14,075 bases of DNA, taken from IMG/VR virus record IMGVR_UViG_2648501920_000010; one strand, written 5' to 3'. The stretch comes from a virus (lineage: Duplodnaviria > Heunggongvirae > Uroviricota > Caudoviricetes). Every line of letters begins with the position of its first letter. Positions within the stretch are counted from its first letter, which is position 1. A program made the translations under genes and the position numbers. The notes beneath the pieces were generated by a model. It was given only the letters and a program-made list of their open reading frames with translations. It did no database searches and was not told the DNA's origin. This document shows positions 6,540-6,917 of the stretch, piece by piece.

Positions 6540-6644
6540 GGATATTTATCAGGATTTATCGGTTTCTGAGCCCTGGATATGTTTATCAGTTCCAGCCTGT
6601 TGCCTCAGGCTGCTAACAGGTCAATACAATCATGAGGATTATTT

Positions 6645-6917
6645 ATGGACAATAACACCATTTCTCTACAGGAGTTGCTCGACAGCATTTCCAGGCTTCG
6701 GGAAGACGTGAATACCCTTACCGTCGCCTTCTCATATCTGGCATTCTCAATTCCAAGGGAACAGATGCAATCAACGCTGGCATCAATCCAGTTTGAATCA
6801 TGCAATCCCAAATGGTCTCAGGAACAACAAGACTCTTTCAGGCGGCTTGCTGTATTACTGGATGAAAAATATGCTGGTAAAATTACCATTTCGGCGGACT
6901 CTTCAGAGAACCCGTAA
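6645..6917 (+). CDS. Hypothetical 90-aa protein encoded antisense to the lysis cassette
   Basis: Track ORF; ATG preceded by GAGGA at 6-nt spacing; candidate -35 TTGCCT / -10 TACAAT upstream (6600..6630, spacer 18-19). Lies in the 343-bp gap between DUF1327 and the endolysin; its 3' end overlaps the DUF1327 3' end by 35 nt (convergent). Lower GC than neighbours. No family recognised. Confidence 0.4.
   Translation: MDNNTISLQELLDSISRLREDVNTLTVAFSYLAFSIPREQMQSTLASIQFESCNPKWSQEQQDSFRRLAVLLDEKYAGKITISADSSENP

What the first reader, a model, noticed from the sequence alone, without database searches (positions are those of the whole stretch)
6540..6917. Own-promoter 90-aa gene transcribed against the grain of the lysis cassette
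Between the DUF1327 gene and the endolysin there is a 343-bp gap on the late strand. On the opposite strand it holds a 90-aa ORF with a strong GAGGA SD at ideal spacing, a plausible promoter, and lower GC than its neighbours; its 3' end overlaps the DUF1327 3' end by 35 nt. A convergent, independently transcribed gene inside a lysis cassette is unusual and could encode a lysogeny-expressed moron whose transcription also interferes with late read-through. No family recognised.
Basis: seen in the sequence. Interest (0 to 1): 0.5.

Follow-up and report, generated by a model that had tools for sequence, protein, structure and literature searches.

The report
Reverse-strand moron gene in lysis cassette
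The 90-codon gene lying backwards between two lysis genes of this E. coli prophage is a real, conserved protein gene of the "moron" type (an add-on accessory gene), and its upstream DNA matches part of a widespread, apparently undescribed control cassette that sits in front of many different small backwards-facing genes in related phages.

Summary
An intact 90-aa ORF lies at 6645-6917 (+), with GAGGA 6 nt before the ATG. It sits in a 343-bp gap between the lysozyme and DUF1327/ydfR genes on the late strand, overlaps ydfR by 35 nt, and has lower GC (0.45 vs 0.55).

It is a real gene. Across E. coli alleles pN/pS is about 0.28, and all 98 fetched copies are intact. Relatives at 25-40% identity occur in Klebsiella, Atlantibacter, Citrobacter and Sodalis, and AlphaFold2 predicts three helices (pLDDT 83).

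It is already catalogued as RefSeq WP_000369850.1, UniRef "Ybl58" and phrog_2411. It has no Pfam family, no fold match and no literature.

It behaves as a moron. It is absent from the same site in K-12 Qin, O157 and other cassettes. Relatives sit backwards in tail, terminase-proximal or other lysis operons.

Its upstream region (6548-6598) matches the promoter-like half of a roughly 125-nt cassette with covarying hairpins. That cassette precedes at least 24 unrelated cargo clusters, including annotated morons HK022 gp23 and ES18 gp25. About 90% of these cassettes face against their neighbours, so the orientation is the rule for this class.

Promoter activity, lysogenic expression, interference with late transcription and the protein's function remain untested.

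The parts
6548..6598 (+). Promoter-like 5' half of the conserved moron cassette. It contains ATCAGGAT (6548-6555), CCCTGGA + TATGTT (6571-6583; TATGTT is -10-like) and TTCCAGCC (6590-6597; equivalent to the conserved TCAGCC box, the putative transcript start).
   Evidence: This is the best nhmmer hit in the window to a profile of 86 cassette leaders (E=0.009, model positions 2-50). In the alignment with L178, ES18, HK022 and L092 it is closest to L178 by eye. The tool's sigma-70 consensus scan finds nothing here, so promoter function is inferred.
6593..6612 (+). Single 7-bp hairpin CAGCCTG / ttgcct / CAGGCTG in the presumed 5' leader. It lies where canonical cassettes carry a 5' UCAGCC...GGCUGA pairing plus two hairpins.
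   Evidence: Folding gives this hairpin, but the whole-leader z-score is only -1.2. The BL21 and SCU-108 alleles keep only 5 bp of the stem. The canonical hairpin-2 motif GGATGGCTGATTA is absent.
6634..6638 (+). Shine-Dalgarno sequence GAGGA, 6 nt before the ATG.
   Evidence: Read from the sequence. It is conserved in the BL21, SCU-108 and J31 alleles.
6645..6917 (+). ybl58-family gene: 90 aa, acidic (pI 4.5), soluble, with three predicted helices (residues 8-35, 38-52, 59-77) and a disordered tail (about residues 79-90).
   Evidence: Translation; phrog_2411 E=1e-58; pN/pS 0.28 with no stops in any allele; AF2 pLDDT 83.1; no transmembrane segment.
6883..6917 (.). Convergent 35-nt overlap of the 3' ends of ybl58 (+) and ydfR (-). 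The sequence from about 6890 rightward is also present in cassettes that lack ybl58.
   Evidence: Coordinates; alignment of filled and empty sites. The last roughly 9 codons of ybl58 are therefore antisense to ydfR's conserved 3' end, and they fall within the low-pLDDT tail (segment 83-89 below 50).
6960..6986 (+). Weak terminator-like hairpin GCGCCUC / 9-nt loop / GGGGCGC + UUUU, lying inside ydfR in antisense.
   Evidence: Read from the sequence. The terminator scan did not report it, and the minimum-free-energy fold of 6918-6985 pairs the region differently (z=-2.2). By contrast, clear terminator-type hairpins ending in a U-run follow the cargo genes of ES18 gp25 and HK022 gp23.
6006..6539 (-). 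Lysozyme (R) of the late operon. Its start lies 8 nt from the left end of the cassette half.
   Evidence: Pfam Phage_lysozyme E=1e-23.
6883..7227 (-). DUF1327 / YdfR-family gene of the late operon, convergent with ybl58.
   Evidence: Pfam DUF1327 E=7e-43.

Best explanation
The ORF is a genuine protein-coding accessory gene (a moron) of a lambdoid E. coli prophage. It encodes a small, acidic, soluble three-helix protein of the narrow enterobacterial Ybl58 / phrog_2411 family. It occupies a slot between ydfR and the lysozyme gene that is empty in many otherwise similar lysis cassettes. It belongs to a class of small cargo genes that lambdoid phages carry backwards inside their late operons, behind a shared promoter-like and structured-leader cassette. 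Annotated examples of that class are HK022 gp23 and ES18 gp25. The copy here is a reduced version: it keeps the promoter-like half, one hairpin, a strong SD and the ORF, but lacks the second hairpin and a clear terminator. Shown: the gene is real and selected, it is an optional insert, and its upstream region is homologous to the cassette. Inferred: transcription starts near 6590-6597 from the TATGTT element; the gene is expressed when the late operon is silent (in the lysogen) and is run over by Q-antiterminated late transcription after induction; and the protein acts by binding another protein for the benefit of the prophage or host, for example in exclusion of or competition with other phages. 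It has no DNA-binding, enzymatic or membrane features.
For: Coding: pooled pN/pS is 0.28, with a binomial p of about 6e-9 (approximate, because the three pairs share sequences). This is the only frame without stops in all alleles, and differences concentrate at third codon positions. All 98 fetched copies are intact. Relatives at 25-40% identity keep the same helix pattern. AF2 gives pLDDT 83 with three helices. Optional insert: K-12 Qin has ydfR and rrrQ overlapping by 4 nt. O157 and strain 51008369SK1 have 50-63 bp at this site. About 1130 of 5426 complete E. coli genomes carry the gene. GC is 0.45 against 0.55 for the lysozyme. Mobility and orientation: relatives lie backwards next to a different lysis cassette in Citrobacter, between tail genes M and L in Atlantibacter and a metagenome contig, near terminase genes in Klebsiella, on E. 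coli plasmids, and in chromosomes. Cassette: the exact 17-mer of the leader occurs in at least 120 viral contigs, each followed about 30-36 nt later by a small ORF. These give 81 distinct proteins in 24 clusters. Hairpin 1 shows compensatory changes at 8 of 8 pairs and 95.9% pairing; no shuffle reaches the observed values. In 74 of 82 loci both flanking large ORFs are on the other strand. The cassette precedes HK022 gp23, annotated 'moron gene product', and ES18 gp25, annotated 'possible moron'. The window's best match to the cassette profile lies exactly upstream of the ORF (6548-6598, E=0.009), and by eye it is closest to the full cassette in L178.
Against: No sigma-70 consensus promoter is found upstream. 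The cassette match covers only the first 50 of 120 model positions and is marginal (E=0.009). The same promoter-like half survives in 'empty' sites, so it is not specific to the ORF. No clear terminator follows the gene. Frameshifted and truncated alleles exist at low frequency. There are no transcription or protein data. No fold or sequence relative of known function was found, so the proposed protein-binding or exclusion role is a guess.
Confidence: 0.6

Rival explanations
1. The main function is at the RNA level. Plus-strand transcription from the cassette runs unterminated into ydfR and the holin gene, and acts as an antisense or transcriptional-interference brake on lysis genes. The protein would be secondary.
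For: The gene is convergent with ydfR and overlaps it by 35 nt, and no clear terminator follows the stop codon. 'Empty' sites keep the promoter-like half pointing into ydfR.
Against: The amino-acid sequence is under purifying selection and is conserved at 25-40% identity in unrelated contexts. The two canonical cassette members examined (ES18 gp25, HK022 gp23) have terminator-type hairpins with U-runs directly after the cargo gene (the ES18 one is annotated). That argues against read-through being the purpose of the class.
Confidence: 0.12
2. It is a lysis accessory protein that tunes holin or endolysin action during the lytic cycle.
For: Family members lie next to two unrelated lysis cassettes: E. 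coli ydfR/R, and a Citrobacter cassette with an S-type holin, CHAP endolysin and DUF2514 spanin. The same cassette type with other cargos abuts further lysis cassettes (L178, mEp213).
Against: It is on the strand opposite the late promoter. Family members also sit in tail operons, near terminase genes, on plasmids and in chromosomes. Many lysis cassettes of the same type work without it. The protein has no membrane segment.
Confidence: 0.1
3. It is a decaying remnant: a once-complete cassette that lost its hairpins and terminator and is no longer expressed.
For: The leader lacks hairpin 2 and a terminator. The sigma-70 scan is negative. Frameshifted copies exist (P0061 and several truncated clusters).
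Against: pN/pS is 0.28 between alleles that have diverged by dS of 0.2-0.56. All 98 fetched copies are intact. The exact protein is seen on at least 1000 contigs, whereas broken forms are seen on a handful. The strong SD is conserved.
Confidence: 0.1

Closest known systems
Morons of lambdoid phages (Juhala et al. 2000, as summarised in PMC3594210): HK97 gp15, lambda bor and lom
   Same: An optional extra gene at a fixed position in a conserved late operon, with GC different from its neighbours and presumed independent transcription. Lambda bor is likewise transcribed against the late strand beside the lysis genes (from my own knowledge).
   Different: Promoter and terminator are not demonstrable here by consensus. 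The product is a soluble helical protein, not a membrane protein or lipoprotein like gp15, Bor or Lom. No phenotype is known.
HK022 gp23 ('srb protein; moron gene product') and ES18 gp25 ('possible moron')
   Same: Small genes (73-95 aa) transcribed backwards inside a late operon and convergent with a small late-strand gene; in ES18 that gene is also a DUF1327 protein. They are preceded by the same conserved upstream cassette, whose 5' half is recognisable at 6548-6598.
   Different: The proteins are not demonstrably homologous to Ybl58 (hhalign E=0.004 with probability 8.5%, and E=0.05). They lie in tail operons and have both hairpins and a clear terminator, all of which the window copy lacks.
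PeSL composite promoter/stem-loop motifs of T4-like phages (PMC4122927; known to me only from its title and the start of its abstract, as listed)
   Same: As its title states, a conserved promoter-plus-stem-loop motif associated with modular shuffling of variable genes. This is a comparable way of seeing one cassette in front of at least 24 unrelated cargo clusters.
   Different: A different phage group and an unrelated sequence. The paper was not read, so the comparison rests on its title. Here the cassettes are single, face against the operon, and any role in recombination is untested.
Ybl58 / phrog_2411 / RefSeq WP_000369850.1
   Same: The identical protein: a full-length PHROG match (E=1e-58), and an exact sequence seen on at least 1000 contigs.
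   Different: These are catalogue entries with no function. No paper mentioning them was found.

Membership tests
Moron (independent accessory transcription unit in a phage operon) | Present in some phages and absent from the same position in close relatives | tested here: met
   K-12 Qin has ydfR and rrrQ overlapping. O157 and 51008369SK1 have 50-63 bp at the site. The window, BL21, SCU-108 and J31 have the gene.
Moron (independent accessory transcription unit in a phage operon) | Base composition differs from the surrounding genes | tested here: met
   ORF GC is 0.451, against 0.551 for the lysozyme, 0.532 for the holin and 0.478 for ydfR. The difference is modest.
Moron (independent accessory transcription unit in a phage operon) | Own promoter | tested here: inconclusive
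   The consensus sigma-70 scan finds nothing in 6540-6644. However, 6548-6598 is homologous to the conserved promoter-like half of the cassette upstream of annotated morons.
Moron (independent accessory transcription unit in a phage operon) | Own terminator | tested here: not met
   The scan reports no terminator after 6917. Only a weak hairpin with four U residues lies at 6960-6986. ES18 and HK022 have clear terminator-type hairpins.
Moron (independent accessory transcription unit in a phage operon) | Expressed from the repressed prophage | not testable with these tools
   This needs RNA-seq or a reporter in a lysogen.
Reverse-oriented cassette class (HK022 gp23 / ES18 gp25 type) | Promoter-like half: ATCAGGRT ... 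CCCTGG(W)TAnnGT, then 5-7 nt, then TCAGCC | tested here: met
   nhmmer E=0.009 at 6548-6598, at the expected place and strand. The match is marginal in score.
Reverse-oriented cassette class (HK022 gp23 / ES18 gp25 type) | Hairpin 1 with a covarying stem directly after TCAGCC | tested here: inconclusive
   One 7-bp hairpin lies at 6593-6612, and only 5 bp are kept in other alleles. It may instead correspond to the UCAGCC/GGCUGA pairing.
Reverse-oriented cassette class (HK022 gp23 / ES18 gp25 type) | Hairpin 2 with the loop GGAUGGCUGAUUA | tested here: not met
   The motif is absent from 6600-6644.
Reverse-oriented cassette class (HK022 gp23 / ES18 gp25 type) | Small cargo ORF facing against both flanking late genes | tested here: met
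   The window's ORF is (+) between the lysozyme (-) and ydfR (-). For the class, this holds at 74 of 82 loci.
Ybl58 / phrog_2411 protein family | Full-length match to the family profile | tested here: met
   phrog_2411 E=1.1e-58, residues 1-90 of 90. The sequence is exact in a cluster that UniRef names Ybl58.
Type I toxin-antitoxin (considered because of the convergent overlap and structured leader) | Small hydrophobic membrane toxin | tested here: not met
   90 aa, pI 4.5, GRAVY -0.43, maximum 19-residue hydropathy 0.75, so no transmembrane segment.

The most novel reading that the evidence does not exclude
The roughly 125-nt upstream module is an undescribed cis-acting element of lambdoid phages. 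It would act as a shared promoter plus structured 5' leader that both drives and helps exchange dozens of unrelated small cargo genes placed antisense to late operons. ybl58 would be one (reduced) member of this system. The module consists of ATCAGGRTGTTGCT, then CCCTGGTTAAnGT, then TCAGCCC, then a covarying hairpin, then a second hairpin whose loop GGAUGGCUGAUUA can pair with the 5' UCAGCC, then the SD. The cargos could be a pool of lysogeny-expressed host-modifying or anti-phage proteins.
Probability: 0.35. Interest if true: 0.7.

Novelty: new member of a known kind. Interest (0 to 1): 0.4.

Why it matters
On its own the gene is an ordinary, uncharacterised prophage accessory gene, found in about a fifth of complete E. 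coli genomes, including BL21 and ST131 strains. Its value is as an entry point. It links to a conserved promoter/leader cassette that has no match in Rfam and no paper containing its sequence. That cassette marks small backwards-facing cargo genes in many enterobacterial temperate phages. If these cassettes are expressed in lysogens, they define an easily searchable set of candidate lysogenic-conversion or phage-competition proteins, and a testable model of how late transcription switches them off.

Tried and rejected
- Pfam, NCBIfam and PADLOC scans of Ybl58 and its relatives gave nothing usable.
- A profile search of PDB sequences found nothing below E=0.7.
- hhalign of the Ybl58 family against the HK022 gp23-like and ES18 gp25-like cargo families did not establish homology.
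- Rfam has no family in 6300-7300 or on the leaders of eight related loci.
- Literature searches for ybl58, ydfR with holin, the accession numbers and the motif sequence gave no hits. The ES18 genome paper is not held.
- A candidate promoter I first read by eye, TTGCCT (6600-6605), 19 nt, TACAAT (6625-6630), was rejected. Its transcript would start inside or after the SD, and TTGCCT is the hairpin loop.
- A LexA box and a sigma-54 promoter were compared by eye with the cassette, and a sigma-28 promoter with the L004 leader. None fits the required spacing or is conserved.
- A type I toxin-antitoxin reading was rejected because the protein is not hydrophobic.
- I tested whether the convergent late-strand partner is always DUF1327. 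Only ES18 gp24 and the window's ydfR are.
- The search for related loci with the distant-member alignment failed because no stretch was conserved enough.

Full report
**1. The observation**

The window's late strand is the minus strand. It carries Rz (5240-5707), a lysozyme (6006-6539), a DUF1327/YdfR gene (6883-7227), a P21-type holin (7232-7525) and a NanS-p-like esterase (7598-9451).

Between the lysozyme start and the ydfR stop there are 343 bp (6540-6882). On the plus strand this gap holds an ATG-initiated ORF at 6645-6917 of 90 codons. GAGGA lies at 6634-6638, six bases before the ATG. The ORF and ydfR converge and overlap by 35 nt.

GC is 0.451 for the ORF, against 0.551 for the lysozyme, 0.532 for the holin and 0.478 for ydfR.

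Two statements do not hold. A sigma-70 consensus scan finds no promoter in 6540-6644 and no plus-strand terminator after 6917. The protein is also not family-less. It matches phrog_2411 end to end (E=1e-58), PGAP annotates it as WP_000369850.1 'hypothetical protein' at this position, and UniRef calls the identical sequence 'Ybl58'. It has no Pfam family.

**2. Is it a real gene?**

Three E. coli alleles (the window, J31-type L090 and SCU-108 L089) differ by dS of 0.22-0.56 but dN of only 0.07-0.09. That gives dN/dS of 0.17-0.34 over codons 1-79, which excludes the overlap with ydfR.

Pooled over the three pairs, the ORF frame has pN/pS of 0.28. The binomial p is about 6e-9; this is approximate because the pairs are not independent. 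The ORF frame has no stops in any allele. The only other frame with a similar ratio is the antisense frame that shares the wobble position, and it contains stops in two of the three alleles. Differences concentrate at third codon positions.

All 98 copies fetched from viral contigs and genomes are intact. A search of 1.84 billion representative proteins finds only 21 relatives, so the family is narrow. The full-length distant members (25-40% identity) come from Klebsiella, Atlantibacter, Citrobacter, Sodalis and metagenomes. They keep the same pattern, ELL..I..LR..VN.L..AFSYLAFS....T...L.FES.

AlphaFold2 with this alignment gives pLDDT 83.1: three helices (residues 8-35, 38-52, 59-77) and a disordered tail. 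The protein is acidic (pI 4.5) and soluble, with no transmembrane segment. A minority of database entries are frameshifted or truncated; the entry literally named 'ybl58' (P0061) is one of them.

**3. It is an optional insert**

The gene occurs in about 1130 of 5426 complete E. coli genomes. These include ST131 strains and BL21, where an 86% identical copy lies in the Rac prophage.

Other lysis cassettes of the same type lack it:
- In K-12 Qin, ydfR and rrrQ overlap by 4 nt.
- In O157:H7 and in strain 51008369SK1, only 50-63 bp separate the two genes.

Aligning filled and empty sites shows shared sequence on the left up to about 6597. On the right, sharing resumes at about 6890. The last roughly nine codons of the ORF are therefore simply the antisense of ydfR's conserved 3' end, and they fall within the low-confidence tail of the model.

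**4. Where relatives sit**

- In Citrobacter, the homologue diverges from a different lysis cassette (S-type holin, CHAP endolysin, DUF2514 spanin) and converges on an unknown gene.
- In Atlantibacter and in a metagenome contig, it lies backwards between the tail genes M and L. Another copy lies backwards near the tail gene K.
- In Klebsiella, it lies backwards upstream of genes that lead into the terminase genes.
- Copies also occur on E. coli plasmids, beside an autotransporter and IS66.
- Copies occur in chromosomes of Sodalis and of an unidentified enterobacterium, in the latter between dinI and bssS.

A single small gene that moves between late operons and always faces against them is what the term 'moron' was coined for. 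PMC3594210 defines a moron as an obvious addition, with different GC and its own promoter and terminator, expressed from the repressed prophage.

**5. The upstream region leads to something larger**

The phage-borne relatives share a non-coding module of about 125 nt upstream of the ATG. In order, it contains:
- ATCAGGRTGTTGCT;
- CCCTGG(W)TAAnGT, where TAAnGT is a -10-like hexamer;
- 5-7 variable bases;
- a conserved TCAGCCC;
- hairpin 1;
- about 10 nt;
- hairpin 2, with the loop GGAUGGCUGAUUA;
- an AAGGA-type SD and the ATG.

In nearly every case an ATG follows 30-36 nt later and opens a small ORF. These give 81 distinct proteins in 24 BLAST clusters. They include DUF1883 proteins, a zinc ribbon and several helical families, and most have no Pfam match.

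On an alignment of 86 leaders, hairpin 1 has compensatory changes at all 8 pairs and 95.9% pairing. Hairpin 2 has them at 4 of 6 pairs. None of 500 shuffles reaches the observed values, and slid controls collapse. G-U wobbles fall on the plus strand, which points to an RNA structure in the cargo mRNA.

The 5' UCAGCC is complementary to GGCUGA in the hairpin-2 loop (99% paired). Both are invariant, so covariation neither supports nor contradicts this pairing. The loop was also part of the search pattern.

In 74 of 82 non-redundant loci, both nearest ORFs of at least 120 aa lie on the opposite strand.

The cassette precedes genes already annotated as morons:
- HK022 gp23 ('srb protein; moron gene product'), backwards between the gpI-like and gpJ-like tail genes;
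- ES18 gp25 ('possible moron'), backwards and convergent with gp24, which is itself a DUF1327 protein;
- mEp213 gp72, backwards after Rz.

Rfam has no family for it, and no paper containing the motif was found. I could not read Juhala et al. 2000 or the ES18 genome paper, so prior description cannot be excluded.

**6. How the window's copy relates to the cassette**

A profile of the 86 leaders finds its best match in the whole window at 6548-6598 on the plus strand (E=0.009). This is exactly upstream of the ORF, and it covers model positions 2-50, the promoter-like half.

This half reads ATCAGGAT at 6548-6555, CCCTGGA-TATGTT at 6571-6583 and TTCCAGCC at 6590-6597. By eye it is closest to the corresponding part of a complete cassette in locus L178. 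That cassette carries a DUF1883 cargo and abuts yet another kind of lysis cassette.

Downstream, the window has only one 7-bp hairpin (6593-6612). Hairpin 2 is missing, and there is no clear terminator. ES18 and HK022 both have clear terminator-type hairpins with U-runs after their cargo. The window's unit is therefore a reduced member of the class.

The 'empty' O157 site still keeps the promoter-like half. This suggests that cargo was lost there rather than gained here, and it means the half is not specific to ybl58.

**7. Mechanism**

Shown: this is a selected protein-coding gene, an optional insert, homologous upstream to a cassette that heads many backwards-facing cargo genes.

Inferred:
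- Transcription starts near 6590-6597 from the TATGTT element. G is present at -14, but there is no good -35.
- The gene is on when the late operon is silent, and it is overrun by Q-modified late transcription after induction.
- The protein works by binding a partner.

No fold or sequence relative gives a function. Homology to the HK022 gp23 or ES18 gp25 families is not established.

Three rivals remain possible but less likely: an RNA-level brake on lysis genes, a lysis accessory protein, and a decaying remnant. They are listed separately with the evidence for and against each.

**8. Verdict**

The gene itself is a new member of a known kind, and interest is modest. The cassette it points to is the more interesting lead.

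Noticed in passing
Loci L169-L288 (viral contigs); L289 (HK022) 2470-2600; L291 (ES18) 2470-2600; L178 2968-3100: A conserved cassette of about 125 nt (promoter-like half plus two covarying hairpins plus an SD) lies upstream of at least 24 unrelated small cargo clusters. About 90% of copies face against both flanking genes. Rfam has no family for it.
   Followed up: partly
window 5709-5807 (-), with a hairpin at 5883-5915: The roughly 298-bp gap between the lysozyme and Rz is absent in BL21, J31 and K-12, where R and Rz overlap. It holds a 32-aa hydrophobic ORF on the late strand ([32 protein letters not shown]). Its stop overlaps the Rz start, and a 13-bp terminator-like hairpin precedes it.
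   Followed up: no
window 9674-9883 (-), 10161-10351 (-), 10429-10675 (-): Two copies of the Rfam sRNA family STnc100 (165 and 136 bits) and three tRNA genes lie upstream of the esterase gene on the late strand.
   Followed up: no
window 4225-4324 (+): An ALIL pseudoknot (Rfam RF01497, 75.9 bits) lies between the terminase and lysis regions. From my own knowledge this marks an IS3-family frameshift site.
   Followed up: no
L291 (ES18) 2597-3149, compared with window 6645-7227: The pairing of a DUF1327 gene on the late strand with a convergent backwards cargo gene recurs in the ES18 tail operon (gp24 and gp25). Other convergent partners (HK022 gp22, mEp213 gp71 and others) have no Pfam match.
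   Followed up: partly
L096 4001-4279; L165 193-468: Distant family members (about 25-29% identity) are chromosomal. They lie on the same strand as their neighbours, upstream of bssS; in L096 and L097 dinI is the upstream neighbour. They have no cassette leader.
   Followed up: no
L086 (O157:H7) 1942-2010; L085 2001-2075: Sites that lack ybl58 still keep the promoter-like half of the cassette, pointing into the 3' end of ydfR. In O157 the ydfR stop codon lies inside the TTCAGG box.
   Followed up: partly
L092 3856-3873, L098 3852-3866, L004 3859-3876 (all minus strand): In tail-operon and other contexts, a minus-strand terminator-like hairpin sits just left of the cassette, between the backwards gene and the next late gene. 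The ES18 annotators assigned the equivalent hairpin to gene 24.
   Followed up: no
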